Made by a program: the position numbers and the translations under genes. This document shows positions 8,655 through 43,322 of a stretch of 60,616 nucleotides of DNA, piece after piece. The notes under the pieces were generated by a model. That model made no database searches. It saw only the letters and a list, made by a program, of their open reading frames with translations, and was not told the DNA's origin. Position 1 is the stretch's first letter, and each line of letters begins with the position of its first letter. Source of the stretch: a virus (Duplodnaviria > Caudoviricetes); the IMG/VR virus record IMGVR_UViG_3300017751_000016, positions 1-60,616 of that record. One strand, given 5' to 3'.

Positions 8655-9101
8655 CTATATACCGAGTTCTTTCTCAGTAATAATCATGAACTCCCAGTTG
8701 CGATCAAGACAAAATTCTTTTGCGGCTTCCCATTTAGCAAGATTCACTCCCCATTGTTTGACTTCGTTGATGAATCTTTTTGTTTTACGAGAAGGTCTTT
8801 TTGGCTCTTGTGTAAAACGCTTTGGCTTCACCTCAACTAGACACATTCTTACTTTTTCTTTACTTCGAATCTTCACAATAAAGTCTACAAAATACCGATG
8901 AATCTTGTTATCTAGCGGTGAACGATACGGTATTACTATCTCTTCGCTGCCCCATTCTAATACTGAGTCGCTTATATCGCACCAATTCATAAACTTCAAC
9001 TCGTAGCTAGACCTATATGTTATGCTTCTCACATTACCTTTGTATTTTGCTGGATTTCTTGGCTGAAATCTTCCTGAATAAACTTCTTTCGAATATGTCA
9101 T
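8655..9101 (-). CDS. gp4: Head completion nuclease gp4
   Basis: G.F.P.NP.KYKG, YRSSYE.KFM.WCD, WGSEE..IPY.SP.D..IHRYFVDF, EVKP, KW.AA. Confidence 0.95.
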   Translation of the reverse strand: MTYSKEVYSGRFQPRNPAKYKGNVRSITYRSSYELKFMNWCDISDSVLEWGSEEIVIPYRSPLDNKIHRYFVDFIVKIRSKEKVRMCLVEVKPKRFTQEPKRPSRKTKRFINEVKQWGVNLAKWEAAKEFCLDRNWEFMIITEKELGI

Positions 9102-9120: not shown

Positions 9121-9128
9121 TATAAATA
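9121..9128 (+). promoter_or_regulatory. T4-type late promoter for repeat-protein module 1
   Basis: TATAAATA in the divergent intergenic region. Confidence 0.8.
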
Positions 9129-9168
9129 AAATAAACTAGAACACTATTTATCTATCAGGAATTGAACA

Positions 9169-9714
9169 ATGGCTACTATTGTAACTAGAGCTGGCAAAGC
9201 ATCTGCACTCACAACGGCAGAAATGGATGCTAATTTTACAAATTTGAACGATGAGCTTGCGGCGGTAGATGTTAGTGGTAAGCTGGATGCCGCTAACGGT
9301 ACTGCTACCGGAACTTTGAACGCAGCTAATATCACTGCTACCGGAGATATTTCAGCGGACAACATCACTGCGGATCTTAAAGGTTACGGCGAAGTAATGC
9401 TGACAACTGCTTCTGCAACTGGTGCTATCAGTCTAGACTTATCTGCTGCTAATATCTTCAGACTAAATCTTACAGGAAACGCTACTGTAACTTTTACTAA
9501 TCCTCCTGCAGCGGGTTCTACTTCGGTTGCTACTATTATTGCAATTCAAGATGGATCTGGTGGTCATACAATTACGTGGACAGACGGTGCTTATGCCGGC
9601 GGTGTTGTTCCTCCTGCTACTACTGGCGCCAATGATGTTGATATTTGGACAGCATTTACATATGACCAAGGCACGTCATATGTTGTTTCTCTATCTATGA
9701 AGGATGTTAGCTAA
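9169..9714 (+). CDS. Virion structural/fibre anchor protein
   Basis: N-terminal MATIVTRAGKASALTTAEMDANFTNLN attachment-type motif; C-terminal QDGSGGHTITW...P..TTGANDVDI beta domain. Confidence 0.65.
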   Translation: MATIVTRAGKASALTTAEMDANFTNLNDELAAVDVSGKLDAANGTATGTLNAANITATGDISADNITADLKGYGEVMLTTASATGAISLDLSAANIFRLNLTGNATVTFTNPPAAGSTSVATIIAIQDGSGGHTITWTDGAYAGGVVPPATTGANDVDIWTAFTYDQGTSYVVSLSMKDVS

Positions 9715-11138
9715 TGCCAATTGGTAAGTTTGGTCTAGAAAAAACCTGGAGAGCTAGTGGTACTGGTACTACTACCGTCACTGCTTCTGGTAATTTTGAT
9801 GTGCCATTCGGAAAACATGATATCACAGTAGAGGGCAAAGGCGGCACAGGTACAGCAGCAGTTCCTTCCAATGTGGCATCATACAATGCAGGTGCGGCGG
9901 GTAATCCTGCAACATACAATGCACCAACACCAGGTAACGTAGCATCATACAATGCAGCTACGCCGGGTAACGTAGCATCATACAATGCAGACTCTGGTGG
10001 CAATATCGCTACTTACAATTCAGAGACTGCGGGTAATCCTGCAACATACAATGCACCAACACCTGGATCTGCGGCATCATACAATGCACCAACACCTGGA
10101 TCTGCGGCAACATACAATTCGCCAATTGCTGGCACTATATCAACATATAATCCTGCAACTGGGGGAAATGTTGCGACATATAATTCTTCATCAGGAGGAA
10201 ATCCTGCAACATACAATCCAGTAACATACAATGCACCAGGAACTACACCCGGTACCGTAGCATCATACAATCCAGTAATATACTCACCTGGTGGAGTTGT
10301 ACCTGGAAATGTTTCAAGTGGCGGTACCGCTGCAACATACAATGCACCATCAGGTTCACCAGGAACTGTTTCAGGTGGCGGTACCGCTGCAACATACAAT
10401 GCACCAGTATAAACAGCAGGAACGGTTGCATCATTTAATCCAGTAACATACAATGCACCAACATTTTCACCAGGAACGGTTGCATCATATAATCCAATAA
10501 TATACAATCCGGATACTTACGTTCCACCATCTTCAAATGGCGGTAATGCTGCAACATATAATGCACCATCATTTTCACCAGGAAATGTTTCTGGTGGTGG
10601 CACCGCAGTGACCTACAATACATTTACACCACCAGGGCCTGCAACATACAATGCACCAACACCTGGATCTGCGGCAACATATAATGCACCAACACCTGGA
10701 TCTGCTGCAACATACAATGCACCAACACCTGGATCTGCTGCAACATACAATGCACCAACACCGGGTACTGTAGCTTCATACAATTCAGGTGCTTCTAGTA
10801 ATCCTGCAACATACAATCCAGAAATATCAGGAAATCCTGCGTCATACAATTCGCCAATATCTGGTAACGTGGCTAGTTATAATGCAGACGTAGCAGGAAA
10901 TATAGCGAGTTATAATTCAGCGGCCGGAGGTAATGTAGCAACATATAACTCTGCTCAGCCAGCAGTCGCTGGTCAACCTGCAACCGCAATGGGAGTGACT
11001 TTACCAGGATCTAATGTTGGCGGAACAGCAGCACCATATACACCTCCACAAAAAGTATCTTACTATGATTATCCAGATTCAGATACTTATCCGGTCACTG
11101 TGACTGATGGCGGTAATGTAGTAATAAAAAGCAATTGA
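9714..11138 (+). CDS. Pro/Tyr-rich repeat virion protein (~474 codons, 11-aa YNAPTPGSAAT-type repeats) interrupted by one in-frame TAA at 10410-10412
   Basis: The frame and repeat pattern continue past the TAA into the track ORF 10608..11138; non-repeat N- and C-terminal caps. Confidence 0.75.
10641..10763 (+). repeat. 33-bp coding tandem repeat (ATYNAPTPGSA, about 3.7 copies)
   Basis: GCAACATA(C/T)AATGCACCAACACCTGGATCTGC(G/T) units; similar copies at ~10041-10115. Confidence 0.85.
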
Positions 11139-11163
11139 CAATCATCTAAATATGATGTAGAAT
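11135..11163 (+). promoter_or_regulatory. Sigma70-type promoter for the oxygenase-glycosyltransferase operon
   Basis: TTGACA-N17-TAGAAT; the spacer holds the inverted repeat ATCAT-N6-ATGAT. Confidence 0.7.
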
Positions 11164-11192
11164 TGTATATATTATTTAAAAAGTGAAAAATT

Positions 11193-11783
11193 ATGACCGG
11201 AATAAACAAGTATTTAGGTACTTTCGAATGCTATGCTCACATGAATCGAGCATTCACGGAAGAAGAAGTTGAAAAGATACGGGAGATAGAAGAACTACAG
11301 AGCTTTCAAAAAGGTACAATTAGCAGTAAGCTCTCAGGCACCGCCTTAAAGAAAGCAAGAGATTCAGATGTATTCTTTATGGACCATGATGAAAATACTG
11401 ATTGGTTGTATCAAAGAATGTCCTACCTAATAGCGCAAGCTAACCACGATCACTTTTTATATAATGTAGATGACTTTGGTCCCATGCAATATACTAAATA
11501 TAAAAAAGATGGTCACTACTGTTGGCATTGGGACGTATTCTTTGGTTGGCAGAAAAATGCTAGGAAAATATCAGTAGTAGTATTTTTGAATGAGCCAGAA
11601 GATTATGAAGGCGGCGAGTTTGAAATAGTTACTAATGGCAATCTAGATGAGATTAAGAAACTAAAACCTTTAAAAGGCGATGCACTGTTTTTTGCGTCTT
11701 GGATGCCACATCGAGTTTTACCGGTAACTTCTGGTGAAAGAAATACACTTGTGACTTGGGTTACTGGTCCTAGAGAATCGTAA
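11193..11783 (+). CDS. 2OG-Fe(II) oxygenase, prolyl-4-hydroxylase/PKHD-like
   Basis: QYTKY, H-x-D (WHWD), RKISVVVFLNEPEDYEGGEF, FASWMPHRVLPVTSGERNTLVTWVTGP. Confidence 0.92.
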   Translation: MTGINKYLGTFECYAHMNRAFTEEEVEKIREIEELQSFQKGTISSKLSGTALKKARDSDVFFMDHDENTDWLYQRMSYLIAQANHDHFLYNVDDFGPMQYTKYKKDGHYCWHWDVFFGWQKNARKISVVVFLNEPEDYEGGEFEIVTNGNLDEIKKLKPLKGDALFFASWMPHRVLPVTSGERNTLVTWVTGPRES

Positions 11784-12511
11784 TGTTTAATTTTTTGAAG
11801 AGAAAAGAAAAGCCTATAATTGAGTTTTATTGTCATCCAAATGTCGAAGGTACTATTCCAGCTCCAAGACCAGCAAACAAACATGTGCCAGATTGGTTTA
11901 AAAGCATACCACCTACAATGACTGGACGTGATGCTAGAAATAGAAAAGGCCTGACTGCAAAAAAATGTATGCCAATGTTAGATGCAATGACACTAGGCTA
12001 TGTCATACCACTCTGCGGCGACCTTGGATTAAAGTCATCTGAGGACTGCGGCACTATTGAAGTTTTTAATCCTGAACCTATGAAATTGGCTGAGTTTCAT
12101 ACTCTAGATCAACTAGGACCAAAAGCTCCGGGTATGCCAGCGCCGCCAGTAAAATTTATTAATCCATGGGTTATAAAAACAGCACCCGGCTGGAGTACTT
12201 TAATAATTCCATTAGTGAACAACAGTCTTGCAAATCCTCACTTCACCTGTTTGGGTGGTCTGGTAGACACAGATACTTATCCTAAAGAGATTAACTTTCC
12301 TGCTGTTTGGCACACTCCAAATTTTGATGGCTTTCTACCGTCGGGCACTCCATTAGTACTAGCTATACCTATAAAGAGGTCTTCTGTTCCTAGAGAATGC
12401 GTGACTAGACCGATGACAGACAAAGAATTCAAAGATATTGATCTTTTACACAGAAGGCAATCCAATAAAATAAACGTCTACACTGATGAGTTGAGAGAGA
12501 AAAGAAAATAA
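11783..12511 (+). CDS. Conserved phage hypothetical protein (KKC.P.LDA...GYVIP family), paralog of the next gene
   Basis: P.PA....PDWFK, KKCMPMLDAMTLGYVIP, KFINPW.IKT.PGWS, G.VDTD.Y, GTPL...IP. Confidence 0.65.
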   Translation: MFNFLKRKEKPIIEFYCHPNVEGTIPAPRPANKHVPDWFKSIPPTMTGRDARNRKGLTAKKCMPMLDAMTLGYVIPLCGDLGLKSSEDCGTIEVFNPEPMKLAEFHTLDQLGPKAPGMPAPPVKFINPWVIKTAPGWSTLIIPLVNNSLANPHFTCLGGLVDTDTYPKEINFPAVWHTPNFDGFLPSGTPLVLAIPIKRSSVPRECVTRPMTDKEFKDIDLLHRRQSNKINVYTDELREKRK

Positions 12512-13233
12512 TGTTTTCAATATTCAAAAAAGAAAAAGACATTGAGTTTGTAGACGTAACTAGAAATGCGTATCTAGATTTTCCTATCATGATGGCGAAA
12601 GATGTGCCTGTACTGGGAAAAGATGAGAGAATAGAGAAGTATGGCGTGAACACGTTTGTACATTGTCCTGGTATGGTAGATTACGCTAAATTAGGATATG
12701 TCATACCTGCTTGGTGTGATATGCGTATTAAGGCAAACAAAGCGGGAGTTGTTGCCACAATTGGAGACAATAAGAGAGGCACTAGAGGATTTCATCTGCC
12801 CAAAAAAATGGATCATACCATCGTTGATGGTATTTTTGAGCCAGAAGATGACGTTCCATTAACAGTTCTGCATATAGGTGCACCTTGGAACATTTTTGTC
12901 AATAAGAATATATCTGCATTAATACTTCCTGCTACTTATCATTCGAAAATTTTCGATGATTTACATGTTTGGCCAGGAGTAGTTGACTACAAAAATTTCA
13001 CTACTGCTAATCTGATTTGTACTCCTAAGCGTAAGTGTGAACTAACCATCAAAGCTGGTGAACCACTTCTACATATTATACCTTTTCTTAATACTCATTT
13101 AGAAGGTGGATATGGACCAGGTACAGATCAACAGGTAGATAAAAGTAGAAATACTATTTTGGGAGGAGACTCTCAATATTACAGAAAATTTCTTTCTGTC
13201 AGAAAAATATTTAGACTGGATAAAAAAGAATGA
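12511..13233 (+). CDS. Conserved phage hypothetical protein, paralog of 11783..12511
   Basis: HCPGMVDYAKLGYVIPAWCD, PW.I, PGVVDY, IKAGEPLLHIIPF align with the upstream paralog. Confidence 0.65.
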   Translation: MFSIFKKEKDIEFVDVTRNAYLDFPIMMAKDVPVLGKDERIEKYGVNTFVHCPGMVDYAKLGYVIPAWCDMRIKANKAGVVATIGDNKRGTRGFHLPKKMDHTIVDGIFEPEDDVPLTVLHIGAPWNIFVNKNISALILPATYHSKIFDDLHVWPGVVDYKNFTTANLICTPKRKCELTIKAGEPLLHIIPFLNTHLEGGYGPGTDQQVDKSRNTILGGDSQYYRKFLSVRKIFRLDKKE

Positions 13234-14180
13234 AAATATTCGTTAGTGTAGTATCATTTAGAGATCCTTTGCTGAAATACACTATTAAAAGCTTACTGGA
13301 AGAACAGTCGGGCGACAATGAAATTATAATTGGGATATTTGAACAAACAAAACTAGAAGATAGTCTGGTTTCTATTGAAAAGAAACTCATAGAAAACCCT
13401 AATATCAGATACAAAAGAATTGAGCCTGAATACGCAGCAGGAGTAGTTTGGGCAAGAAAAATAAATGCAGCTCAGATAGAAGATGAAGATTTTTTATATC
13501 AAGTTGATTCTCATATTGTTTACGACAAAGACTGGGACCGATACTTATTACAAGACTGGGAGCTTGCTAGACAAAAAACAAACAGCTCTAGAGTAGTTCT
13601 AACTGCCGCATGTCATAATTACAGTCTTGATGCTGCTGGTATTCCCCATAAACTGTCAGACAAAAATAATCCTCTTGCTACTTCTGCCAAGTATTTTACT
13701 TTTCAGAAACACAACAGAATGCCAGCAGCACATGGCGAATGGATACCAAAAACTGATGATGTAATGCCAGCTATTCATATTTTTGCAGGCAATTTTTTTG
13801 CTCCTACACGATGGGTTGATGATGTTGGATATGATGCTAGAATATTCTTTGAAGGCGAAGAGCATTATATGGTAATGAAATCTTTCATACAAGGCTGGCA
13901 TCTATATCACCAAAGAGAAATGCATTGCTATCACTATGATGGATCAAATGATCATGTAACAAAACACTGGATTGATCCTGTCACTGATAACTATTCGAAT
14001 ATGATGGTAAAGGGATTAGTGTATTGGAAAAAATTTATTGACAGCATCTCGGAAGAAGACTTAAAAAAATATCATGAATACTCTGGAGTAGATTATATTA
14101 ATTGCATAATTGAAGAAAGAGCGTTTACTCGTCAAATTATAGATCCTCATGCAACTGGCACACCGGACTCAGAAGATTAG
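13230..14180 (+). CDS. Glycosyltransferase of the Skp1-hydroxyproline GlcNAc-transferase (Gnt1/GT60-like) type
   Basis: IFVSVVSFRDP, G.VWAR, EDFLYQVDSH (DxH), WD..L, FAGNFF, YD..IFFEGEE, GW.LY...CYH.Y motifs. Confidence 0.8.
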   Translation: MKIFVSVVSFRDPLLKYTIKSLLEEQSGDNEIIIGIFEQTKLEDSLVSIEKKLIENPNIRYKRIEPEYAAGVVWARKINAAQIEDEDFLYQVDSHIVYDKDWDRYLLQDWELARQKTNSSRVVLTAACHNYSLDAAGIPHKLSDKNNPLATSAKYFTFQKHNRMPAAHGEWIPKTDDVMPAIHIFAGNFFAPTRWVDDVGYDARIFFEGEEHYMVMKSFIQGWHLYHQREMHCYHYDGSNDHVTKHWIDPVTDNYSNMMVKGLVYWKKFIDSISEEDLKKYHEYSGVDYINCIIEERAFTRQIIDPHATGTPDSED

Positions 14181-14199: not shown

Positions 14200-14207
14200 T
14201 ATAAATA
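14200..14207 (+). promoter_or_regulatory. T4-type late promoter for the gp48 operon
   Basis: TATAAATA. Confidence 0.8.
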
Positions 14208-14237: not shown

Positions 14238-15575
14238 ATGAACGATACCGTAAGAACTCCTACCGGGCAACAGCGAAATAGAACCTCTGCGGCACAGAGG
14301 GCTGCAGACAATGGAAAAATTTCACAAGAACAAGCTAATGAAATGCGTTTCATTCAAGATGCTGCGCCAGCTGAGGAAGATAATTCAGGGACTATATTTG
14401 ACGGAAAAAATAATCATGATACTGAAAATCTGTCTGATATTAGTCAAGAAGATCAAGATAACCTAAAGAAATACGTTTATACTACAGTCAAAGCATTTGA
14501 ATATCCTTTGCGGCTAGGCGAATCTACCAACAACTCAGAACCAGAGCATCTTCATAGTGTTCGATTTACTGCTCTTGCAAGAGAAAATAGTAGAGTGGCG
14601 CTGGCGACAAATTCAGCAATAGACGAAGAAAACAAAAGCTGGTTTGGATCAGACTATGCTGATTATGGCGTTAGTGGTAGTCTAGAAGCGGTCGACAGAA
14701 CAGAACAAAATAGATTAAGTGCAGAACAAGCCGGTGCTTTGGCTTTATTATCAGGCGGCGCCGCCGGTGCTGCGTTAGGAGTAAAACTAGCTGGAAAGAT
14801 CGGCGAAGGTACAAATGCAATTGGAAGTACTCTTGGATTTATTGGTGGTGCAGGCGCCGGCGTTGGTCTTGCAGCAGGCGTGGTAGAAAGAGTAAGAACG
14901 GTAAGAACTCTCGGTTTGATTGATTTATATATTTCTCAACCACCAATAGCTAGATACAGTGCTAACTGGGAAAACAAAGAACTTGGCGCTCTCGCTGGAG
15001 CTGCTGGTGCTGTCACTGATGCAATTCAGAACAGCGATATGAGTCAGTTACTGTCAGCTGGCACAGGAGTTGGTGAGCTTGGAATACGAAGTGCAATTAA
15101 AGCTGCCGCATCTTTACCGTCTTCACTAGGCATCACCGGGGAAATTGGGGCAGGGGTTGATCTCGCATCAGGAAAAACACCAAACCCATATAAAGAACAG
15201 CTATTTACAAGTATGGGATTTCGTCAGTTTGCGTTTAACTACAAATTTGCTCCAAGAAACAACGCAGAGTATGAAAATGTTAAGCGAATTATTGAACTTT
15301 TTAAATATCATATGCATCCTGAAAATGATCCTACTGGACTTTTCTTAGAATATCCTTCCGAGTTTGAAATAGAATATTGTTATAGGGGTGACATTAATCC
15401 CCACTTAAATAAAATATCTTCGTGTGCGCTTACTGATATGAAAATCACGTATGGCAATCAAGACGCTTTTACCACTATATTAAATACCGGTGGTGTGCCC
15501 GCTGAAATTAATGTAGAGTTGGCGTTTACTGAACTCGAAACTCTAACGAACAACAGAATAGCGGATGGTTTCTAA
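14238..15575 (+). CDS. gp48: Baseplate tail-tube cap gp48
   Basis: NPYKEQLF.SM.FRQF.FNYKFAPRN..E, FKYHMHPE, YPSEF.IEY, ELAFTELE. Confidence 0.88.
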   Translation: MNDTVRTPTGQQRNRTSAAQRAADNGKISQEQANEMRFIQDAAPAEEDNSGTIFDGKNNHDTENLSDISQEDQDNLKKYVYTTVKAFEYPLRLGESTNNSEPEHLHSVRFTALARENSRVALATNSAIDEENKSWFGSDYADYGVSGSLEAVDRTEQNRLSAEQAGALALLSGGAAGAALGVKLAGKIGEGTNAIGSTLGFIGGAGAGVGLAAGVVERVRTVRTLGLIDLYISQPPIARYSANWENKELGALAGAAGAVTDAIQNSDMSQLLSAGTGVGELGIRSAIKAAASLPSSLGITGEIGAGVDLASGKTPNPYKEQLFTSMGFRQFAFNYKFAPRNNAEYENVKRIIELFKYHMHPENDPTGLFLEYPSEFEIEYCYRGDINPHLNKISSCALTDMKITYGNQDAFTTILNTGGVPAEINVELAFTELETLTNNRIADGF

Positions 15576-34014: not shown

Positions 34015-34497
34015 ATGGCAACATTAACATTAAGGTCAGTTAAAGGTACTCCTTTGACAAATACTGAAGTTGATAATAACTTTGGTAATTTGAATACTGA
34101 TAAATATGAGTCTGGCGATTCAGTTAGTGTTGATGATCTGGTAGTTTCTGGAGAGACAACTGTTAGTACATCCGCCGCTGTAAGTGCTGCTGGTACTGTA
34201 CAGGGTGATGCTACTGCATTGACAAAAACATACAATCTAGTTACGACAGCAACAGCGGATCAAGGTGTCAAACTTCCTTCTGCTGCTACTGGTAAATCGT
34301 GTACTGTATTAAATGCTACTTCAGTCAACATTAAGATTTATCCTGCTACATCTGATCAAATAGATAGCCTGTCAGTCAATGTTGCAAAAGACTTGGCACC
34401 AGGTGCATCTTATAATTTAGTCTGTTCTTCTAGTAGTACATGGAAGACATTGCAGCCAACTCTAATTTTCGACTCATCGGGCGCTCGCCTGAATTAA
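34015..34497 (+). CDS. Virion structural/fibre anchor protein
   Basis: MATLTLRSVKGTPLTNTEVDNNFGNLN N-terminus, same motif as 9169..9714; V.LPSAATG beta domain. Confidence 0.65.
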   Translation: MATLTLRSVKGTPLTNTEVDNNFGNLNTDKYESGDSVSVDDLVVSGETTVSTSAAVSAAGTVQGDATALTKTYNLVTTATADQGVKLPSAATGKSCTVLNATSVNIKIYPATSDQIDSLSVNVAKDLAPGASYNLVCSSSSTWKTLQPTLIFDSSGARLN

Positions 34498-34510
34498 GGA
34501 ATAATAAAAA

Positions 34511-35899
34511 ATGCTTCCAATACGAATCAAAGCTTCCAGCAGTCCAGTGTCTTCTGCAAACTTCCAAGGTTTACAGCAAATGTCAGATGCTGAAATTAAT
34601 CAATACCTGTCTGCTGTAATTACACAAAAGTTTGCAGATGATACAAATGGAACAGGCACTGCCGAACTCAATGTAGACACTGCGAATGCTTTAACTGGTA
34701 CCTCTATTGGTACATGGACTAACCAAATCAGGAATGATGCGATCGGCACTCATCCAACTAGTGGCGCAACCACTAATACTACTCACTACTTCAAGCAAGT
34801 CACTGCTGCTGCATCTGAGAGCATTACTAATCGCCCTGTAGGATATGACTCTGCAATTAAAGAATTTACGGATGCGGGCCTCGATACTGACATTTTAGAT
34901 AAAGTAATTGAAGACATGGTTACTAGCACTGGCTATACGGTAGGCCAGTATGTTTTAGCTGCGTCTGCTCCTTCTGGTGGCACATGGACTTCACGGTATA
35001 CGCTCACCGATACAAATCAAGGTGGTAGCACCTCACTATATCTTTGGCAAAAAACTGCACCATCTACTGCTGCAAATGGCGATTTAGCTCCACTCAAGCT
35101 AGATGGTACTAATGTTAAAATGATGTCTGATGCTGAAATTGAACAAGTTGTTCCTAATTTTAGAAATAGAATTATTGACTCTGGTATAGGCACATATAAA
35201 ATACAATCTTCCACTCCAGGTACTGGTACTTGGACTCAAATGGGAGACACATTAAACGACACACGCCAAGTAGTATCTTCGGAAAACTACGCAGGCAACT
35301 ATGTAGGAAACTTTAGCGGAACATATGCGGGTAACTATGTAGGCGGCTATGTGGGCTCTAAAACATATTCTGGTACATATGCTGGTGGTTATGCAGGCAA
35401 CTATGTAGGAAGCTATGTGGGCGCTAAAACATATTCGGGTTCTTATACTGGATCTTTCTCTGGAACTTATGCAGGCAACTATGTAGGCACTAGTGCATAT
35501 GCTGGAGCTTATGCGGGTGATTATGCAAGAGCTGAAGGTTACACTTTGTTTTATTCAGGATATGCAGGCGGCACAAACTATTATACAGGATATTACACCG
35601 GCTTTTATACCGGATACTATACCGGTGCAAAGACTTATACTGGTAATTATACTGGCGCATACAACAGAAACTTTACTGGTAACTATGTAGGCACTTCTGC
35701 GTATTCTGGAACTTATTCTGGTACATACACTGGCTACTACACTGGTAACTATGTTGGTACTTCTACCTATTCTGGTTCATATACTGGCAACTATAGCGGA
35801 AGCTATAGCAATACTTTTTCTGGAACTTATGCTGGAGACACTGTACAAGCGTCAACAGAAGTTGTTTCTAATGTAAAACTTTGGCTGAGAACTGCGTAA
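34511..35899 (+). CDS. Virion protein with duplicated N-terminal domain and long Y-x-G-x tetrapeptide repeat tract
   Basis: Two MSDAEI..GTWT units; YAGN/YVGN/YSGT/YTGY repeats at ~35285-35835; ends KLWLRTA. Confidence 0.75.
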   Translation: MLPIRIKASSSPVSSANFQGLQQMSDAEINQYLSAVITQKFADDTNGTGTAELNVDTANALTGTSIGTWTNQIRNDAIGTHPTSGATTNTTHYFKQVTAAASESITNRPVGYDSAIKEFTDAGLDTDILDKVIEDMVTSTGYTVGQYVLAASAPSGGTWTSRYTLTDTNQGGSTSLYLWQKTAPSTAANGDLAPLKLDGTNVKMMSDAEIEQVVPNFRNRIIDSGIGTYKIQSSTPGTGTWTQMGDTLNDTRQVVSSENYAGNYVGNFSGTYAGNYVGGYVGSKTYSGTYAGGYAGNYVGSYVGAKTYSGSYTGSFSGTYAGNYVGTSAYAGAYAGDYARAEGYTLFYSGYAGGTNYYTGYYTGFYTGYYTGAKTYTGNYTGAYNRNFTGNYVGTSAYSGTYSGTYTGYYTGNYVGTSTYSGSYTGNYSGSYSNTFSGTYAGDTVQASTEVVSNVKLWLRTA

Positions 35900-35914
35900 A
35901 AACTATTTTATATA

Positions 35915-37210
35915 ATGGATTTTGAACTTGAACGGCTGAAAAGATTTCGCAAATTAATTAGATATGCGAATCAGAATTCTCCCTACTATGCTAGAATTAT
36001 TAGAGAGAATAGGATAGACATTGAATCCTCGGTTCCCGAGGATTTTCCTATTCTCACTAAAACTATGGCGATGGAAAACTTTGATGACATTGTTACAGAC
36101 AGAAAGATAACCAAAGAAAAAATTGAAGAGTTTATCACTACTTCTTCAGATCCAAGAGAGTTATACTTAAACAAATACACTGCTCTAGTCACTTCAGGTT
36201 CTTCTGGAGAAGAGGGGTACTTTGTTTCTCATGCCAAAGACACTTTTCGTGGATTAAAATCTCTCATACCTACCAAAACTTCTCTTAAATTTTCTATCAT
36301 ACTAAAGTTCATTTCTTTCTTTATCAAGAAGAAAAAAAGAATAGGGTTTGCATTTTACGGAAACACTGGTGGTCATTATGCTGGATATGATTCGGCAACT
36401 AAATGGCCTAAGATGCTATTTAATGTAAAAGGATTTGAGATTAATGATTCTGTAAATGTTGTGCTGAGTGAACTAAATGAGTTTCAACCAGAAGTCGTAT
36501 GCGGCTACACTACGATGCTTAAAATTTTAGCAGAAGAACAAGCGTCTGGGAGACTAAAAATAAAACCGATGTTTGTAATTTCTTCAGCAGAGACTGTAAC
36601 TAAAGAAGATATTGACTTTTTGTCTGAATCTTTTCCTGGCTCATACGTTATTAGTCTTTATGCTAGTAGTGAGCATGGTAACATGGGAAGGTCAAATCGT
36701 GATAAAGAAACAATGTCGCTGTATGATGACAAACTTATATTTGAATTTTTTGAAGATCATGTGCTAGTGACTAACTTATGCAACTATACCATGCCTTTAA
36801 TTAGATATAAAATGGCTGATGTGCTTACAGTTGTGAGTGAAAAACACACATATCCAACTGTAGTAAAAAATCTAGTCAGCAGGGCAGAAACTAAAGTCAA
36901 TTTTATAAATGCTACCGGAGAATTAGAAAGTTTTACTTCTTTCATCACTCGCAGATTTTATGTGAAAGGGGTGAGTAAATTTCAGATGCAAGTGAATAGT
37001 ACTACTTCTTTTATGTTTCCTATATGCCTCGAAAACCATCTCACAGAAAGTGAAAGAACAGATGCAGTATCAAAAGTAAAAGCTCGTCTCAAAGAAATAT
37101 TACACAGAAAAAATTTAGATAATGTGTCTTTCGAAATTAAAATAGTCAAAGACATACCAGTAAATAAAAAAACTAGAAAATTTCAATTGATTGTAGATGA
37201 GACGATTTAA
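35915..37210 (+). CDS. Adenylate-forming enzyme, phenylacetate-CoA ligase/CapK-like
   Basis: SPYY, FPILTK..AMENFD.IVTD, TSGSSG P-loop, YASSE.G, VTNL.NYTMPLIRY.M.D. Confidence 0.82.
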   Translation: MDFELERLKRFRKLIRYANQNSPYYARIIRENRIDIESSVPEDFPILTKTMAMENFDDIVTDRKITKEKIEEFITTSSDPRELYLNKYTALVTSGSSGEEGYFVSHAKDTFRGLKSLIPTKTSLKFSIILKFISFFIKKKKRIGFAFYGNTGGHYAGYDSATKWPKMLFNVKGFEINDSVNVVLSELNEFQPEVVCGYTTMLKILAEEQASGRLKIKPMFVISSAETVTKEDIDFLSESFPGSYVISLYASSEHGNMGRSNRDKETMSLYDDKLIFEFFEDHVLVTNLCNYTMPLIRYKMADVLTVVSEKHTYPTVVKNLVSRAETKVNFINATGELESFTSFITRRFYVKGVSKFQMQVNSTTSFMFPICLENHLTESERTDAVSKVKARLKEILHRKNLDNVSFEIKIVKDIPVNKKTRKFQLIVDETI

Positions 37211-37258
37211 AATCTTGTCTATATAGTAATGAAGTTTTATTAATATGGAGTTTATATC

Positions 37259-37747
37259 ATGACTGAACTAGCCGTTTCTTCGGAAACCTCTGTCAAACAA
37301 GTATCCGCAGACACACCTAAAAAGAAATATCTTTTCCCTTATTGGTCTAATAAGGAAAACAGACACCTTATCGTCACGATAGAAAATACTAATGGTCAGA
37401 GCAACATGGCTTCCATTATGGATCCTGACGGCACTAATCCTGACATGAAGTTGGTTCTAGAGCAGTATACCGAAGACGAAATTGATAAAAACACACAAGA
37501 TGGTCTAGACAGACGCAACGAAAATATCAAGCGTCAAATGGAAAGGCGTGAATCTCAGATGGTTCGTGGTAAACAAGAATCATTATTTAACTGCAAGCTA
37601 GAAGCTTTCGAAGTAGATGCCATTAAAAATTCTAAAAATACTGAGATGAAACGAAAAATTCGTAAGTCTAAGTCTATCATGGAAGTTCAGGCATACGCAA
37701 CTATTCTATTGATGAAGGAACTAGAGAATGACGAAGCAACAGACTAA
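37259..37747 (+). CDS. Hypothetical protein
   Basis: 162-aa ORF with GGAG RBS; LF..KLEAFE...IKNSKN...K.KIRKSKS. Confidence 0.65.
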   Translation: MTELAVSSETSVKQVSADTPKKKYLFPYWSNKENRHLIVTIENTNGQSNMASIMDPDGTNPDMKLVLEQYTEDEIDKNTQDGLDRRNENIKRQMERRESQMVRGKQESLFNCKLEAFEVDAIKNSKNTEMKRKIRKSKSIMEVQAYATILLMKELENDEATD

Positions 37748-38432
37748 AGGGTTTGTAATTGTTGCGTCTGTCAGAAAAGGGTTTTATCGTTACGCTAAAG
37801 TATTAGCAGAATCAGTTAGAGACTTTTATCCAGAAGCAAACATAACATTTTTCACACACGAAGAATGGGTTGAGCCTGAAGACTATACACTGTTTGATAA
37901 CATTGTAACTGAAGGCATTCCTCGTCACATTCGTGCTAAGTTGTGGGCATTAGAAAAAACTCCATACGATATTACCTGTTATCTAGACGCTGACATGATG
38001 TGTGAGCATGAAGATATTCAGAATGTGTGGGACGAGTTGCCTGATGATTTAGATATTGTCTTCACTAAGAATCGTCCTTACAACGCCAAACTGACTAAAC
38101 TGGCTGAAGGCGAAGAGATGACTTGTCACTGTGGATTCTTTATCTATAGAAAGAATGAAGCAACTATGGATCTTATGGGGGCATGGTACACTGAGTATCT
38201 AGCACAGTGGGAACCAGACTACGACATGCTTCACTACCCCAAAGAGGCTAGAAAGTGGGACACATTTACTATGTGGCGGCTGCTCACATACGGAGATAAA
38301 GGTGTTAAGTGGGGATACATCAAAGAGCCAGATGCTCGTTGGAACTTTGTGAACGGATATCATTTCGAAGAATTACAAGGCACTGATATTGTTTTGTATC
38401 ATCACACAATTCCACCAGATAAGTTAGACTAG
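37728..38432 (+). CDS. GT-A fold glycosyltransferase (nucleotide-diphospho-sugar transferase)
   Basis: RAKLWAL.KTPYD.T.YLDAD (DxD), CG.F.Y, RWNF, C-terminal H. Confidence 0.75.
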   Translation: MTKQQTKGFVIVASVRKGFYRYAKVLAESVRDFYPEANITFFTHEEWVEPEDYTLFDNIVTEGIPRHIRAKLWALEKTPYDITCYLDADMMCEHEDIQNVWDELPDDLDIVFTKNRPYNAKLTKLAEGEEMTCHCGFFIYRKNEATMDLMGAWYTEYLAQWEPDYDMLHYPKEARKWDTFTMWRLLTYGDKGVKWGYIKEPDARWNFVNGYHFEELQGTDIVLYHHTIPPDKLD

Positions 38433-38443
38433 GAGTTTAAATA

Positions 38444-39100
38444 ATGAAATGGATTGATATTAATAATACTGAAATATCAGAAATTTTAAACTCGTATAGT
38501 GATTGGTTCTTTGACCAAGACTTAACTGAGCTAGATAAAATTGCAAATCATGAAGGCAGACATCAAGGCTACACTTTGTCAAAAGCGTGTGGTCTTGAAC
38601 ACCTAAAGGAAATTGTCACTAAAGATGGCGAACATATAGGTTATCCTGAGAAAACAATTTCAGTAGACATTGCTTCAGAAGATCGAGTATCGTCAGAGCA
38701 TAAGAAAAGATGTAGAGACATGGCGACTACATTGTGTTCTTATCTAGGTGCTAGAAATCAAGCTGTCAATGTGTATTATCCAGCAGCAGGTTTTATGAGT
38801 TGGCACAACAACTGGAATGCAGCAGGATATAATATTCTTCTGTCATACTCAAAAGAAGGAAATGGATTCTTTCGTTACAGAGATCCTATCACACACGAAG
38901 TAGTGAACATGCCAGACAAGCCTGGTTGGACATGTAAAGTAGGATACTTTGGAAAAGGTAGAGAACCAGACAAAGTGTTTTATCACTGTGCTGGCTCTCA
39001 TGAACAAAGACTGTCTTTAGGCTTTGTCGTACCTCACTTAGAAATGTGGCAAGACATGATTGAAGACATTTCAGGTGAAGACGCTACTTCGTTCCAATAG
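38444..39100 (+). CDS. Cupin/2OG-Fe(II)-like putative oxygenase
   Basis: YYP..GFMSWHNN, G.F.Y, GW..K.G.F, FYHCAGS...R.S.GF jelly-roll pattern. Confidence 0.55.
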   Translation: MKWIDINNTEISEILNSYSDWFFDQDLTELDKIANHEGRHQGYTLSKACGLEHLKEIVTKDGEHIGYPEKTISVDIASEDRVSSEHKKRCRDMATTLCSYLGARNQAVNVYYPAAGFMSWHNNWNAAGYNILLSYSKEGNGFFRYRDPITHEVVNMPDKPGWTCKVGYFGKGREPDKVFYHCAGSHEQRLSLGFVVPHLEMWQDMIEDISGEDATSFQ

Positions 39101-39740
39101 CCATAAAACGATCAAACTCATTTAGACCGTCAAACGTCCAGTATTTTTGTTTAATAGAACCTTGATACTGGACATTTTTTATGCCTGTGTTTTCTATATG
39201 ATTTTCAATTGAGTCTACACAATTAATACCATACATTTCTTTGATTAAGTTTGAATTCTGAACAGCAAATATACAATCAGGGTTTGATGTGGTTAGCTCT
39301 TTCAAAGGATACATAGTTTCTGCACACATTGATATAAGAACATCGCTATGTAAAGCATTAATATCATGAAACGCAAACGGAACATCCCAATTGATATGAT
39401 TTAAATCGATGCCTTGTTCTCTATAGTAACGATTGAATACTTGCGATAGTTCTAATGCGTCTTTATCAATATCAATCAAGTTTATTTTTCCAACATTAAA
39501 GTTTTCACAGAGTAAAGGAACTAGTGGAAATCCTAACCAAGAATTTAAGACAGTTATAGTTAATTTTTTATTTGTATCTAACACAGTGTCTAGTTCTTCA
39601 CACAACCAAATAGCAGCTTCCATTGAATTTGGATTTAAAGACTTTCTAAAGTCTTCTTGCTTGTAAGGCATTTCATGATTAATCTTATCTAGACCATCAC
39701 CCCAATTTTTGTAGTTGTTCAAAAAATTATAATTTAACAT
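39084..39740 (-). CDS. Methyltransferase-like Rossmann-fold protein
   Basis: WLCE, VLNSWLG, IDID..A, QNSN..E..GINCV.S, RFMAIG; ATG 39740 preferred over the track start 39764. Confidence 0.55.
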   Translation of the reverse strand: MLNYNFLNNYKNWGDGLDKINHEMPYKQEDFRKSLNPNSMEAAIWLCEELDTVLDTNKKLTITVLNSWLGFPLVPLLCENFNVGKINLIDIDKDALELSQVFNRYYREQGIDLNHINWDVPFAFHDINALHSDVLISMCAETMYPLKELTTSNPDCIFAVQNSNLIKEMYGINCVDSIENHIENTGIKNVQYQGSIKQKYWTFDGLNEFDRFMAIGTK

Positions 39741-39747
39741 CTTCCGG

Positions 39748-40416
39748 TCACTCCATAGAATCATATAAACACACTAGTAGATTGTCTCGTACTACATGCT
39801 TCTCAATATCAGTAGGCCATATATAGCCATTGTTGTAACTGTAAACCCATCCATCTGGGAAGTGATCTATTTTTAATAATCTTTCACGTTGATGAGCAAA
39901 TAGATTATCTAGGCCACGATAGTAGAAAAACATTTGTGATGGATAGTCACGAACAAATTTTGTGATCTTGTCAATATTTAGTCTGTCGTTCCAACGCAAT
40001 ACTGATGAGTTCAATTCAGTGTACGCCCACGGAATATCTACAACATCTCGTTTCATTTTTTTAAGATTGTGCCAACAAGTTCTAATGAATGTCAAGTTAT
40101 CTTCAGGATCGTAGTTCACAATACAATCTATATTTTGTTGTATCTCAACATCTAAGTCTAGAAAAAGCTTTTCGCCTTTTTGAGTGACAACAGTGCGATC
40201 AAACAGATATAATTTGTTCCACCATTTTTCATAGTAGTTGTCTTCAGGTAAATCAATCACTAAGATATCAGGATTCAATCCCCAAGGAGCTTCTGTTAAA
40301 CAATAGAAGTCAAACTCCTCAGTAATATGTTCTTTACACATTTCGTGTATTTTATTTACATGTTCGTGTGAGTATTTTTCTCCCCACTTCACGGTATAAA
40401 TGCTAATCATTTCCAA
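39748..40416 (-). CDS. Glycosyltransferase-like protein, KWGxKY family (paralog 4)
   Basis: VKWGEKY, F.CLT, WWNKL.LF, LFLDLDV, NSSVL.W. Confidence 0.75.
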   Translation of the reverse strand: MEMISIYTVKWGEKYSHEHVNKIHEMCKEHITEEFDFYCLTEAPWGLNPDILVIDLPEDNYYEKWWNKLYLFDRTVVTQKGEKLFLDLDVEIQQNIDCIVNYDPEDNLTFIRTCWHNLKKMKRDVVDIPWAYTELNSSVLRWNDRLNIDKITKFVRDYPSQMFFYYRGLDNLFAHQRERLLKIDHFPDGWVYSYNNGYIWPTDIEKHVVRDNLLVCLYDSME

Positions 40417-42608: not shown

Positions 42609-42625
42609 ATTGAATATCAATTTGT

Positions 42626-42633
42626 TATAAATA
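42626..42633 (+). promoter_or_regulatory. T4-type late promoter for the fibre/neck operon
   Basis: TATAAATA. Confidence 0.8.
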
Positions 42634-42660
42634 AAAAGAGTGAACTAACAGGATAATCAT

Positions 42661-43250: not shown

Positions 43251-43322
43251 AAATTATACTATGGAAACATGTTTTTATAATAAGTAAAAAGTATTTTTTT
43301 TTAATAAAAGGAGAATTGCCAC

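What the first reader, a model, noticed from the sequence alone, without database searches (positions are those of the whole stretch)
9121..14180. Candidate phage hydroxyproline O-glycosylation system: Pro-rich repeat virion protein, prolyl hydroxylase-like oxygenase, two paralogs and a Skp1/Gnt1-type GlcNAc-transferase
Seen: inserted between gp4 and gp48 are an anchor protein, a ~474-aa protein with dozens of Y-N-A-P-T-P-G-type units, a 2OG-Fe(II) oxygenase (HxD...H...R), two paralogous unknowns and a GT with IFVS..S.RD / DSH / F.GEE motifs. Established: in Dictyostelium and Toxoplasma, PhyA hydroxylates a Skp1 proline and Gnt1 (GT60) adds GlcNAc to the hydroxyproline. Inference: the phage encodes both substrate and enzymes for an extensin- or mucin-like glycosylated virion appendage, which could serve adhesion, protease or grazer resistance, or receptor mimicry. 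This is the best candidate for an undescribed system in the window.
Basis: partly seen in the sequence, partly recalled or inferred. Interest (0 to 1): 0.9.

Follow-up and report, generated by a model that had tools for sequence, protein, structure and literature searches.

The report
Phage fibre-protein tailoring gene cassette
An uncultured marine T4-like phage carries, next to a tail-fibre-type gene, a highly repetitive protein followed by a hydroxylase-type enzyme, two unknown enzyme-like proteins and a protein sugar-transferase, a gene set that recurs in many uncultured phages and probably decorates that repeat protein chemically, although which amino acid is modified is still open.

Summary
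Between gp4 and gp48 lie a fibre-knob protein, a 474-codon repeat protein, a PF13640 2OG oxygenase (H112-x-D114, H173, R183), two paralogs and a PF11397 (GT60-type) transferase with DSH and GEE motifs. The window's repeat gene has an in-frame TAA at 10410. Contigs of 4 of 4 seawater or viral metagenome runs read TAT there, so the gene is intact in the population.

The cassette is real and conserved. Of 69 viral loci with enough upstream DNA, 64 keep oxygenase-par1-par2-GT contiguous and the other 5 keep all four genes.

The hydroxyproline-GlcNAc reading is only partly supported:
- The one invariant of the repeats is aromatic-Asn ([Y/F]-N), not Pro. One relative has 4% Pro.
- GT60 also holds Ser/Thr-directed enzymes (PMC8724618).
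- The oxygenase's nearest solved relatives are PiuC/YbiX proteins, for which I found no stated substrate.
- A 64-kb phage record rated 100% complete keeps the repeat protein, oxygenase and paralogs with a sulfotransferase and no GT.

The paralogs are dUTPase-fold, DUF6065-related proteins, and a model supports their pairing. This scan found the same cassette earlier on other DNA (e1-5967883, e1-5967885).

The parts
9121..9128 (+). T4-type late-promoter motif TATAAATA, 41 nt before the start of the fibre-knob gene
   Evidence: 15 copies in the window against 5.5 expected; 1 of 100 shuffles reaches 15. Another copy lies at 14200, before gp48. Searches give the position. This is a motif match only; no transcript data.
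9169..9714 (+). Small fibre protein ('anchor'): an N-terminal attachment-type segment plus a C-terminal knob domain. In relatives the same knob ends fibre proteins of 265-1494 aa.
   Evidence: PHROG tail-fibre families, 1.4e-7 to 1.5e-5. Relatives carry the knob on larger proteins. One of these has collagen repeats, PF01391 6.8e-117. Its stop overlaps the next start by 1 nt.
9714..11138 (+). [Y/F]-N repeat protein of 474 codons, the presumed substrate. Conserved N-terminal (~50 aa) and C-terminal (~60 aa) beta segments flank two arrays of 11-residue units such as ATYNAPTPGNV.
   Evidence: An AF2 model of the 83% relative gives pLDDT 87-97 for both ends and 30-50 for the repeats. The two ends align together as one beta-sandwich, best Z 5.8. 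Pfam, PHROGs and NCBIfam give no match.
10410..10412 (+). In-frame TAA in the window sequence. It reads TAT (Tyr) in public metagenome contigs, so it is most likely an error or a rare variant.
   Evidence: Searches show the stop. In one search, A>T at 10412 accounts for all the depth in 4 of 4 runs (X1, X3, X4, X5), one contig each.
11135..11163 (+). Sigma-70-like promoter match TTGACA-N17-TAGAAT in the 54-nt gap before the enzyme genes
   Evidence: 11 of 12 matches. The region's total count of such sites (15) is not above chance (17.7 expected), so this is a lead only.
11193..11783 (+). 2OG/Fe(II) oxygenase of the P4H superfamily (PF13640), closest to PiuC/YbiX-type hydroxylases
   Evidence: 1.5e-19. 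(PiuC 1.7e-7; chains named prolyl 4-hydroxylase 7.2e-5). (PRK05467-type, 1.5e-18, below the cut-off). (H112, D114, H173, R183 conserved).
11783..12511 (+). par1: dUTPase-fold, DUF6065-related protein of unknown activity
   Evidence: AF2 pLDDT 83, pTM 0.77. VIA-align Z 10.6, rmsd 3.2 over 121 residues, to a dUTPase. Rows 1-22 of the VIA list, down to Z 6.4, are dUTPases, dCTP deaminases or dUTPase-fold viral proteins; the next row scores 5.0. Of 32 family members, 17 hit PF19541. 49 residues are invariant in 19 orthologs.
12511..13233 (+). par2: a paralog of par1 (~23% identity), modelled to pair with it
   Evidence: complex prediction ipSAE 0.75 against a best control of 0.00.
13230..14180 (+). 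PF11397 (CAZy GT60-type) glycosyltransferase with no evident N-terminal membrane anchor and a conserved DSH motif
   Evidence: All 120 listed homologs of 273 carry PF11397.

Best explanation
This is a conserved, horizontally mobile phage cassette that tailors a virion-fibre accessory protein after translation.

A late-expressed fibre-knob protein and a hypervariable [Y/F]-N repeat protein are followed by a tightly coupled enzyme operon. The repeat protein appears to have two ends that fold into one small beta-sandwich, with the ~400-residue repeats forming a long loop or hairpin.

The core of the enzyme set is a P4H-superfamily 2OG/Fe(II) oxygenase plus a heteromer of two dUTPase-fold, DUF6065-related proteins. 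A cytoplasmic GT60-type glycosyltransferase is the usual last step. In some lineages a sulfotransferase accompanies or replaces it.

Most likely the oxygenase hydroxylates side chains in the repeat loop, and the transferase then puts a sugar on a hydroxyl group there. In GT60 enzymes that have been studied the sugar is GlcNAc.

Shown here: gene content, catalytic motifs, synteny, folds.

Inferred: that the repeat protein is the substrate; that hydroxylation comes before glycosylation; the donor sugar; and the acceptor. My split for the acceptor is hydroxyproline about 0.3, Ser/Thr directly about 0.25, and another hydroxylated residue, such as the invariant Asn or the aromatic residue, about 0.1.
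For: - **Family assignments and motifs.** PF13640 at 71 bits with HxD, H and R conserved. PF11397 at 97 bits with DSH and GEE conserved.
- **Operon structure.** Oxygenase, par1, par2 and GT overlap by 1, 1 and 4 nt.
- **Synteny from the GT side.** The scan found 113 relatives and kept 80 loci, which form 37 clusters at 95% identity or more. Of 69 loci with at least 2.3 kb upstream, 64 keep oxygenase-par1-par2-GT contiguous (29 of 33 clusters). In the other 5 the GT sits directly before a repeat gene that is followed by oxygenase-par1-par2.
- **Repeat gene position.** A repeat-protein C-terminus ends less than 300 nt before the oxygenase in 52 of 67 loci. I inspected 8 of the 15 exceptions. Six have a second repeat-protein gene there, and two (L011, L049) have one or two inserted genes.
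- **Synteny from the substrate side.** 23 of 28 loci hold all four enzymes.
- **Conservation across divergence.** The set stays together down to 40% GT identity and occurs in both T4-like contigs and a 64-kb genome.
- **Variable tailoring genes at the same spot.** These point to a shared protein substrate: Sulfotransfer_2 in 9 contigs, and GT-methyltransferase fusions in 4 of the 120 listed homologs.
- **Late expression.** A late-promoter motif lies before the fibre and repeat genes.
- **par1 and par2.** dUTPase fold. The pair is modelled to bind, ipSAE 0.75 against a best control of 0.00. That mark was reached by 58 of 80 solved complexes and 2 of 110 mismatched pairs. Runs agree in at least 62% of contacts and partner pLDDT is at least 72. 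Invariant residues lie in the interface.
Against: - There is no direct evidence of any modification, of virion incorporation or of expression timing.
- The repeats have no conserved Pro. Only [Y/F]-N is invariant, and that could be purely structural.
- The oxygenase's nearest solved relatives, PiuC/YbiX, have no stated substrate in what I read, and its NCBIfam matches are below their cut-offs.
- 2OG oxygenases are very common in marine phages: 363 phage records match this one.
- Three or four related contigs have no GT. These include a record rated 100% complete and searched whole.
- L099 has a repeat protein with window-like ATYNAPTPG units and none of the four enzymes within 6 kb downstream. 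That record is only 16% complete.
- par1 homologs in haloarchaeal viruses stand alone, without an oxygenase or GT.
- The par1-par2 pass may partly reflect likeness to solved dUTPase oligomers.
- The repeat region is modelled with low confidence (pLDDT 30-50), which cannot separate disorder from an obligate oligomeric fibre.
Confidence: 0.6

Rival explanations
1. The oxygenase is a prolyl 4-hydroxylase that converts many repeat prolines (AP, TP) to hydroxyproline, and the GT adds GlcNAc to hydroxyproline, as PhyA and Gnt1 do on Skp1. The result would be an extensin-like glycosylated appendage.
For: - PF13640 and PF11397 are the Pfam families into which I place PhyA-type and Gnt1-type enzymes (PMC8724618 section 16).
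- In the window 88% of inter-motif units contain Pro, and the protein is 12% Pro.
- Chains named prolyl 4-hydroxylase are among the PDB sequence matches (7.2e-5 and 6.4e-4).
- In lineages without a GT, a sulfotransferase sits in the operon immediately after the oxygenase gene, which fits a hydroxyl handle being made first.
Against: - Pro is not conserved in the repeat family. L011 has 4% Pro and Pro in 28% of its units, yet keeps all the enzymes.
- Pro contexts differ widely between lineages: AP/TP, YP/QP/RP, NP, GP.
- GT60 also contains Ser/Thr-directed enzymes.
- The best solved relatives are PiuC/YbiX, not prolyl hydroxylases.
Confidence: 0.3
2. Mucin-type direct O-glycosylation. The GT glycosylates Thr/Ser of the repeats without prior hydroxylation, as the Golgi GT60 pp-alpha-GlcNAc transferases of protists do. 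The oxygenase and the DUF6065 pair carry out a separate modification of the same protein.
For: - GT60 includes Ser/Thr-directed initiators of mucin-type glycans (passage of section 10 of PMC8724618).
- In most of the 65 repeat proteins, 75-100% of units hold Thr or Ser; two fall lower, at 50% and 58%.
- The GT and the oxygenase-par core can be uncoupled. GT-less lineages exist, and in 5 loci the GT is displaced.
Against: - In 64 of 69 loci the GT is translationally adjacent to the oxygenase-par genes.
- Nothing here tests acceptor specificity.
Confidence: 0.2
3. The enzymes do not act on the repeat protein. They would be auxiliary genes kept beside a hypervariable fibre locus only by shared late or island organisation: an oxygenase of the common marine-phage kind, dUTPase-fold nucleotide enzymes, and a GT acting on host envelope, DNA or a small molecule.
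For: - 2OG oxygenases are widespread in cyanophages and pelagiphages.
- par-like genes occur without this context in haloviruses and cyanophages.
- The dUTPase fold suggests nucleotide chemistry.
- L099 has the repeat protein without the enzymes nearby.
Against: - The order repeat gene, oxygenase, par1, par2, GT persists across 29 of 33 clusters down to 40% identity and across different phage backbones. When the GT moves, it moves to another repeat-gene border.
- Characterised PF11397 enzymes are protein glycosyltransferases.
- This GT subfamily was found in only one 4.4-kb contig among the genomes of 185,579 species, and that contig carries the same cassette.
Confidence: 0.12
4. The [Y/F]-N repeats are a purely structural fibre motif, for example Asn ladders with aromatic stacking in an oligomeric stalk. 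The downstream proteins would then serve mainly as assembly factors or chaperones rather than as tailoring enzymes.
For: - Repeat periods are regular within each protein (modes 8, 10, 11), and many relatives show two arrays around a central Cys-containing segment.
- The two ends fold together, so a hairpin stalk is geometrically possible.
- Fibre genes are often followed by chaperones (general knowledge, recalled).
Against: - The catalytic residues of the oxygenase and the GT are conserved in at least 97% of 51 sequences each.
- Sulfotransferase and methyltransferase add-ons make a purely chaperone role unlikely.
Confidence: 0.08

Closest known systems
Skp1 hydroxyproline glycosylation pathway of Dictyostelium and Toxoplasma (PhyA prolyl 4-hydroxylase, then the Gnt1 GT60 GlcNAc-transferase)
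   Same: A P4H-superfamily 2OG oxygenase and a soluble GT60/PF11397-type transferase acting in the cytoplasm. The GT has a conserved DxH-type motif.
   Different: - The target is not Skp1 but a hypervariable repeat protein.
- Many sites are possible, rather than one.
- The genes form one operon together with two dUTPase-fold proteins that have no counterpart in the Skp1 pathway.
- The oxygenase is nearer to PiuC/YbiX than to the chains named prolyl 4-hydroxylase.
- The GT is optional in some lineages.
Protist Golgi pp-alpha-GlcNAc transferases (GT60) that start mucin-type O-glycans on Ser/Thr
   Same: The same CAZy/Pfam family. The acceptors are repetitive and rich in Thr, Ser and Pro.
   Different: Those enzymes are membrane-anchored Golgi proteins and need no hydroxylase. 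The phage enzyme shows no N-terminal anchor (by inspection) and is linked to an oxygenase.
Giant-virus hydroxylation systems: the chlorovirus PBCV-1 prolyl 4-hydroxylase acting on Pro-rich repeats, and the mimivirus bifunctional collagen lysyl hydroxylase/glucosyltransferase
   Same: The virus encodes both a repetitive structural substrate and the hydroxylase, and in mimivirus also the sugar transferase, that modifies it.
   Different: Those are viruses of eukaryotes with collagen-like or PAPK-type repeats. Here the virus is a tailed phage with [Y/F]-N repeats, almost no Lys (0-2%), a GT60-type GT and additional dUTPase-fold proteins.
Virion O-glycosylation by phage-encoded glycosyltransferases in mycobacteriophages
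   Same: Phage-encoded GTs decorate the phage's own structural proteins.
   Different: As I recall, that system involves no hydroxylase, no dedicated repeat substrate gene and different GT families.
Trimeric dUTPases and dCTP deaminases (for par1/par2)
   Same: The same fold: Z 10.6, rmsd 3.2 over 121 of 129 residues. An invariant Asp in a G-x-V-D-x-D-x-Y segment resembles dUTPase motif 3 (motif recalled; residues).
   Different: - No sequence match to dUTPase families in Pfam or PDB.
- About 100 extra residues.
- Two diverged paralogs that model as a heteromer.
- They belong with the uncharacterised DUF6065 family.

Membership tests
PF11397 'GlcNAc' / CAZy GT60 | Sequence match to the family model above its curated cut-off | tested here: met
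   97.3 bits against a cut-off of 21, E 1.6e-27. A six-frame search of the record gave 73.7 and 23.9 bits. No other GT family matched at E <= 0.1.
PF11397 'GlcNAc' / CAZy GT60 | DxH-type metal-binding motif of the GT-A fold (motif definition recalled) | tested here: met
   D93-S94-H95 is invariant in 19 diverse homologs and conserved in at least 97% of 51.
PF11397 'GlcNAc' / CAZy GT60 | UDP-GlcNAc donor, alpha-retaining transfer to a protein | not testable with these tools
   Needs an enzyme assay.
Gnt1-type (hydroxyproline-directed) subgroup of GT60 | The acceptor is 4-hydroxyproline | not testable with these tools
   The family also holds Ser/Thr-directed enzymes (PMC8724618). No solved GT60 chain was found by sequence.
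P4H superfamily, PF13640 2OG-FeII_Oxy_3 | Family match plus the HxD...H iron triad and a basic 2OG-binding residue | tested here: met
   71.1 bits against a cut-off of 27. H112, D114, H173 and R183 are conserved in at least 97% of 51 sequences.
Prolyl 4-hydroxylase (enzyme activity) | Hydroxylates peptidyl proline | not testable with these tools
   The best solved relatives are PiuC/YbiX PKHD-type hydroxylases (1.7e-7). Chains named prolyl 4-hydroxylase are weaker (7.2e-5 and 6.4e-4). NCBIfam PRK05467-type matches are all below their cut-offs.
Trimeric dUTPase / dCTP deaminase | dUTPase-like beta-barrel fold | tested here: met
   par1 model pLDDT 83. Z 10.6, rmsd 3.2 over 121 residues. Rows 1-22, down to Z 6.4, are dUTPases, dCTP deaminases or dUTPase-fold viral proteins; the next row scores 5.0. 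Foldseek 1.8e-4.
Trimeric dUTPase / dCTP deaminase | Sequence membership (Pfam dUTPase/DCD models, five dUTPase motifs) | tested here: not met
   No dUTPase or DCD Pfam match for par1, par2 or 32 relatives at E <= 10. The family profile found no PDB sequence at E <= 10. I therefore do not file them as dUTPases.
DUF6065 (PF19541) | Sequence match above the curated cut-off of 26.6 bits | tested here: inconclusive
   The window's own par1 and par2 give no match. 17 of 32 family members match, best 1.1e-12. Orthologs in two other records reach 30.9 and 27.9 bits. The ESM Atlas's nearest cluster is 'DUF6065 family protein', score 0.98.
Extensin- or mucin-like Pro/Ser/Thr-rich glycoprotein domain | Conserved Pro (or Ser/Thr) positions in the repeat unit | tested here: inconclusive
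   In the window, Pro is in 88% of units and Thr/Ser in 96%. Across 65 repeat proteins only [Y/F]-N is invariant, and Pro content runs from 4 to 19%.

The most novel reading that the evidence does not exclude
The constant core of the cassette is not hydroxylase plus GT. It is a 2OG oxygenase plus a heteromeric dUTPase-fold (DUF6065) enzyme acting on the invariant aromatic-Asn units of a loop-forming fibre protein.

This core would install a protein modification not yet described. One possibility is hydroxylation of, or next to, the Asn or aromatic residue. Another is transfer of a nucleotide-derived group by the dUTPase-fold pair. Glycosylation, sulfation and methylation would then be lineage-specific second steps.

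That would make this a phage-borne, RiPP-like combinatorial tailoring system for host-recognition proteins, and it would give DUF6065 its first function.
Probability: 0.12. Interest if true: 0.9.

Novelty: new variant of a known kind. Interest (0 to 1): 0.68.

Why it matters
Post-translational chemistry on phage host-recognition structures is barely explored. A mobile cassette that pairs a hypervariable repeat protein with its own hydroxylase, transferase and two unknown enzymes would add a second layer of diversification to phage-host recognition in abundant marine and freshwater phages, on top of sequence variation in the fibres.

It would also provide:
- a prokaryotic-virus counterpart of eukaryotic hydroxylation-glycosylation pathways (Skp1, extensins, collagen);
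- a tractable substrate for GT60-type enzymes from a bacterial virus;
- a first functional context for DUF6065, a dUTPase-fold family for which my full-text search found no paper.

All the parts can be expressed in E. coli, so the question can be tested directly by mass spectrometry.

Tried and rejected
**Searches and models that gave nothing**
- Megablast of the region against cultured phages: no match.
- tblastn of the GT: only Xanthomonas phage XacN1, at 23% identity.
- tblastn of the repeat protein's N-terminal (55 aa) and C-terminal (74 aa) domains against 50,697 phage records: no match.
- phmmer and profile searches of the GT and the par family against PDB sequences: nothing meaningful.
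- Fold search of the repeat-protein model: only generic beta-sandwich matches, best Z 5.8, no family assigned.

**Readings I considered and dropped**
- Programmed readthrough or a split gene at the TAA. Rejected because 4 of 4 runs read TAT.
- A cupin or oxygenase fold for par1/par2. Rejected because cupin rows score Z 4.2 or less against 10.6 for dUTPases.
- A conserved partnership between DUF6065 and an oxygenase in bacteria. DUF6065 was found in 2 of 301 Bacteroidota genomes searched, and the one bacterial neighbourhood I read was uninformative; my ORF choices in that GC-rich contig may also be wrong. In phages the link rests on three observations: the cassette itself, a second oxygenase-par pair in L081/L082, and cyanophage P-TIM40, where a par-like gene lies beside two tryptophan halogenases and five 2OG/JmjC oxygenases.
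- The sigma-70-like promoter at 11135. It is a good single match, but the region's count is not above chance.

**Literature**
None of these full-text searches found a description of this cassette:
- 'GT60' + 'bacteriophage': 3 papers, none relevant by title or abstract start.
- 'prolyl 4-hydroxylase' + phage + glycosyltransferase + hydroxyproline: 7 papers, none on phage systems by title or abstract start.
- 'DUF6065': 0 papers.
- 'PiuC' + hydroxylase + 2-oxoglutarate: 0 papers.
- Gnt1 + Skp1 + hydroxyproline + prokaryot: 1 paper.
- Phage-encoded glycosyltransferase, virion, glycosylated, tail fiber: 60 papers, 15 listed, none describing this.
- YbiX + oxygenase: the listing shows only an iron-homeostasis context.

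Supplementary files were not opened. Subscription journals are not covered.

**Limits of the run data**
Nothing is therefore known about expression.

Full report
**What is in the window**

The window is an IMG/VR viral contig of 60.6 kb, rated about 38% complete. It comes from a marine T4-like myovirus with no close cultured relative. Megablast finds nothing, and gp48 is 34% identical to that of Pelagibacter phage HTVC008M over half its length.

Six + strand genes lie between a gp4-type head-closure gene (8655-9101, minus strand) and a gp48-type tail-tube cap gene (14238-15575):
- 9169-9714: a 181-aa protein with a tail-fibre-type C-terminal domain.
- 9714-11138: a 474-codon repeat gene.
- 11193-11783: a PF13640 2OG/Fe(II) oxygenase.
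- 11783-12511 and 12511-13233: two paralogs of phrog_7084.
- 13230-14180: a PF11397 'GlcNAc' glycosyltransferase.

In 51 sequences each, the oxygenase keeps H112-x-D114, H173 and R183, and the GT keeps I3-F4-V5, S9, D12, D93-S94-H95, F207, E210 and E211. R11 and G209 are invariant in the 19-sequence alignment. The four enzyme genes overlap by 1, 1 and 4 nt, so they form one operon.

A T4-type late-promoter motif, TATAAATA, lies 41 nt before the fibre gene, and another lies before gp48. The window has 15 copies against 5.5 expected. A sigma-70-like match sits in the 54-nt gap before the oxygenase, but the number of such matches in the region is not above chance.

**The stop codon**

In the window the repeat ORF is interrupted by TAA at 10410-10412, and the repeats continue in frame after it. 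Contigs of four public runs from four studies all read T at 10412. In each run this is one contig, which accounts for all the depth at that place and ends 36-38 letters further on. That gives TAT, Tyr. A 95% relative reads Tyr at the corresponding place, and the 83% relative has an intact 521-aa ORF.

So the gene is intact in the population. The stop is an assembly error or a rare variant, not a recoding signal. The same call shows joints inside the repeats, which fit either repeat-number variation or assembly ambiguity.

**The cassette is conserved and mobile**

A profile of 19 GT homologs found 113 relatives in viral contigs, of which 80 loci were kept. They form 37 clusters at 95% GT identity or more.
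- Of 69 loci with at least 2.3 kb upstream of the GT, 64 have oxygenase-par1-par2-GT contiguous (29 of 33 clusters).
- In the other 5 the GT lies directly before a repeat-protein gene that is followed by oxygenase-par1-par2.
- A repeat-protein C-terminus ends less than 300 nt before the oxygenase in 52 of 67 loci. I inspected 8 of the 15 exceptions. Six have a second repeat-protein paralog at that position, and two (L011, L049) have one or two inserted genes.

The 'anchor' domain is the C-terminal knob of fibre proteins of 265-1494 aa in relatives. One of these is collagen-like.

Among one genome for each of 185,579 prokaryote species, this GT subfamily was found once. The hit is a 4.4-kb contig of a Chitinophagaceae MAG that carries the same cassette, so it is probably phage DNA.

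No cultured phage in the collection has the repeat protein's end domains. Only XacN1 has a distant GT relative.

**The repeat protein**

I compared 65 distinct family members, of 171-866 aa; the shortest are cut off by contig ends.
- **Shared ends.** They share an N-terminal segment of about 50 aa and a C-terminal segment of about 60 aa.
- **Variable repeats.** Between these ends lie repeats that differ greatly between lineages in unit length (modes 4, 8, 10, 11) and in composition. Many members also have a central Cys-containing segment without repeats.
- **The one constant.** The only constant in the repeats is an aromatic residue followed by Asn. Of 2293 such motifs the aromatic residue is Y in 74%, F in 25% and W in 1%.
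- **Proline.** Pro content ranges from 4 to 19%. In L011, which has QNVASYNA-type units, only 28% of units hold a Pro, yet the full enzyme set is present. In the window 88% of units hold Pro and 96% hold Thr or Ser.

An AF2 model of the 83% relative is confident only for the two ends (pLDDT 87-97). The ends align together as one small beta-sandwich with generic matches, best Z 5.8. The repeats are modelled without structure, at pLDDT 30-50. This suggests a base domain from which the repeats leave and return, as a loop or a hairpin. It cannot tell disorder from an obligate oligomer.

**The enzymes**

- **Oxygenase.** It is a P4H-superfamily member. Its nearest solved relatives are PiuC/YbiX 'PKHD-type hydroxylases' (1.7e-7), ahead of chains named prolyl 4-hydroxylase (7.2e-5). 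Its NCBIfam matches are of the same type but below their cut-offs. In the listing I saw, YbiX/PiuC appears only in an iron-homeostasis context, with no substrate named.
- **GT.** It is a clear PF11397 member. A review by West and colleagues (PMC8724618; one passage of section 10 and all of section 16 read) states that GT60 comprises the pp-alpha-GlcNAc transferases that start mucin-type glycans on Ser/Thr in protists. It also states that the enzyme initiating Skp1 glycosylation is a related soluble pp-alpha-GlcNAcT. Family membership therefore does not fix the acceptor.
- **par1.** The model (pLDDT 83) has a dUTPase/dCTP-deaminase fold. The best match has Z 10.6 and rmsd 3.2 over 121 residues. 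Rows 1-22, down to Z 6.4, are dUTPases, dCTP deaminases or dUTPase-fold viral proteins, and the next row scores 5.0. There is no sequence match to dUTPase families.
- **DUF6065.** 17 of 32 members of the par family, and two orthologs in other records, match PF19541. The ESM Atlas's nearest cluster is named 'DUF6065 family protein'. No paper in the library contains that name.
- **par1 with par2.** They are modelled to bind: ipSAE 0.75 in three runs (0.74, 0.77, 0.75), with the best of 3 controls at 0.00. That mark was reached by 58 of 80 solved complexes and 2 of 110 mismatched pairs. The runs agree in at least 62% of contacts, and partner pLDDT is at least 72. The interface contains family-invariant residues. 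The pass may owe something to likeness with solved dUTPase oligomers.

**Variation that bears on mechanism**

Searching from the substrate side, with a C-terminal-domain profile, gave 28 loci. Of these, 23 hold all four enzymes and one is cut off after the oxygenase.

Three loci (L091, L093, L094) have this order: fibre knob, a short F/Y-N repeat protein, oxygenase, a Sulfotransfer_2 protein, par1, par2. The sulfotransferase scores 24.6 bits against a cut-off of 22. They have no GT. A whole-record search found no PF11397 in any of the five records searched, which include L091's 63.9-kb record, rated 100% complete. The same search on the window's own record was positive.

L099 is a T4-like contig rated 16% complete. 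It has a 530-aa repeat protein with ATYNAPTPG-type units, followed only by an unknown gene and a sulfotransferase-like gene.

Sulfotransferase-like genes occur in 9 distinct contigs, among them the low-Pro L010-L013 group, which also keeps the full enzyme set. Four of the 120 listed GT homologs are fused to methyltransferase domains.

So the fibre gene plus the repeat protein is the constant. Oxygenase plus the par pair is the usual core. GT, sulfotransferase and methyltransferase are interchangeable additions. This pattern is what a tailoring cluster for one protein substrate would look like. A sulfotransferase sitting in the operon immediately after the oxygenase gene fits, but does not prove, the idea that the oxygenase makes a hydroxyl handle.

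**Verdict**

The general idea, that the phage encodes a substrate and the enzymes that decorate it, is well supported by synteny. No modification has been shown.

The specific hydroxyproline-O-GlcNAc chemistry is one candidate among several. I put it at about 0.3, for four reasons:
- Pro is not the conserved element of the repeats.
- GT60 acceptors include Ser/Thr.
- The oxygenase's closest relatives have no stated substrate in what I read.
- The GT is optional.

Compared with what is known, this is a new variant of the hydroxylation-glycosylation theme seen in Skp1, extensins and giant-virus collagen. It has a new substrate family and two unexplained dUTPase-fold components. I found no description of it in print.

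This scan had already flagged the same cassette on two other genomes (e1-5967883, e1-5967885).
- the corrected stop codon;
- the [Y/F]-N invariant;
- the joined-ends model of the repeat protein;
- the DUF6065 link;
- the modelled par1-par2 pairing;
- the lineages with a sulfotransferase and no GT.

Noticed in passing
window 10410-10412: The window sequence has an in-frame TAA inside the repeat gene. Contigs of four public metagenome runs read TAT there, so the deposited contig probably carries an error or a minor variant.
   Followed up: yes
L091 6830-7450; L011 5153-5842; L099 6814-7518: Sulfotransferase-family genes (PF03567 at 24.6 and 27.8 bits; the L099 copy is recognised only by BLAST similarity) sit inside the cassette in 9 distinct contigs. 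In the L091 lineage they occur with no GT60-type gene in a record rated 100% complete.
   Followed up: partly
L025 6238-10719: The same C-terminal fibre knob ends a 1494-aa protein with 13 stretches of collagen triple-helix repeats (PF01391, 6.8e-117). It is another possible target for a P4H-type oxygenase in that lineage.
   Followed up: no
proteins P0060, P0063, P0068, P0072: Some GT homologs of about 520 aa are fused to SAM-methyltransferase domains, which suggests a methylated glycan or peptide in those phages.
   Followed up: no
L081 7614-8150 (-); L082 6436-7736 (-): A second oxygenase (33% identity) lies on the opposite strand in both loci. In L082 it is directly adjacent to a par1-like gene (39% identity). 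An oxygenase next to a DUF6065-like gene may therefore be a recurring unit.
   Followed up: no
L085 (Cyanophage P-TIM40, record 36079-44582): A par-like gene (PTIM40_48) lies in an island with two annotated tryptophan halogenases and five 2OG/JmjC-type oxygenases.
   Followed up: partly
L083 (Halorubrum phage HF2, HrrHF2_475) and about 48 other haloarchaeal virus records: Haloarchaeal tailed viruses encode a par1 homolog at about 34% identity over 95% of its length. In HF2 it stands alone between a ribonucleotide reductase gene and the tail module.
   Followed up: partly
window, 15 sites including 9121 and 14200: The T4 late-promoter motif TATAAATA occurs 15 times against 5.5 expected, mostly on the + strand. 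This phage therefore probably uses T4-type late transcription.
   Followed up: partly
L086 (4.4-kb contig of a Chitinophagaceae MAG): This is the only prokaryote-genome hit for this GT subfamily. It is a short contig carrying the whole cassette, so it is probably phage DNA binned with the MAG. At best it is a weak hint at a Bacteroidota host.
   Followed up: partly
window 34015-42620: An earlier first-reader note (e1-6293852) describes a second island with a YxG-repeat protein and several glycosyltransferases. If that is right, this phage invests in more than one virion-decoration system. I did not examine it.
   Followed up: no
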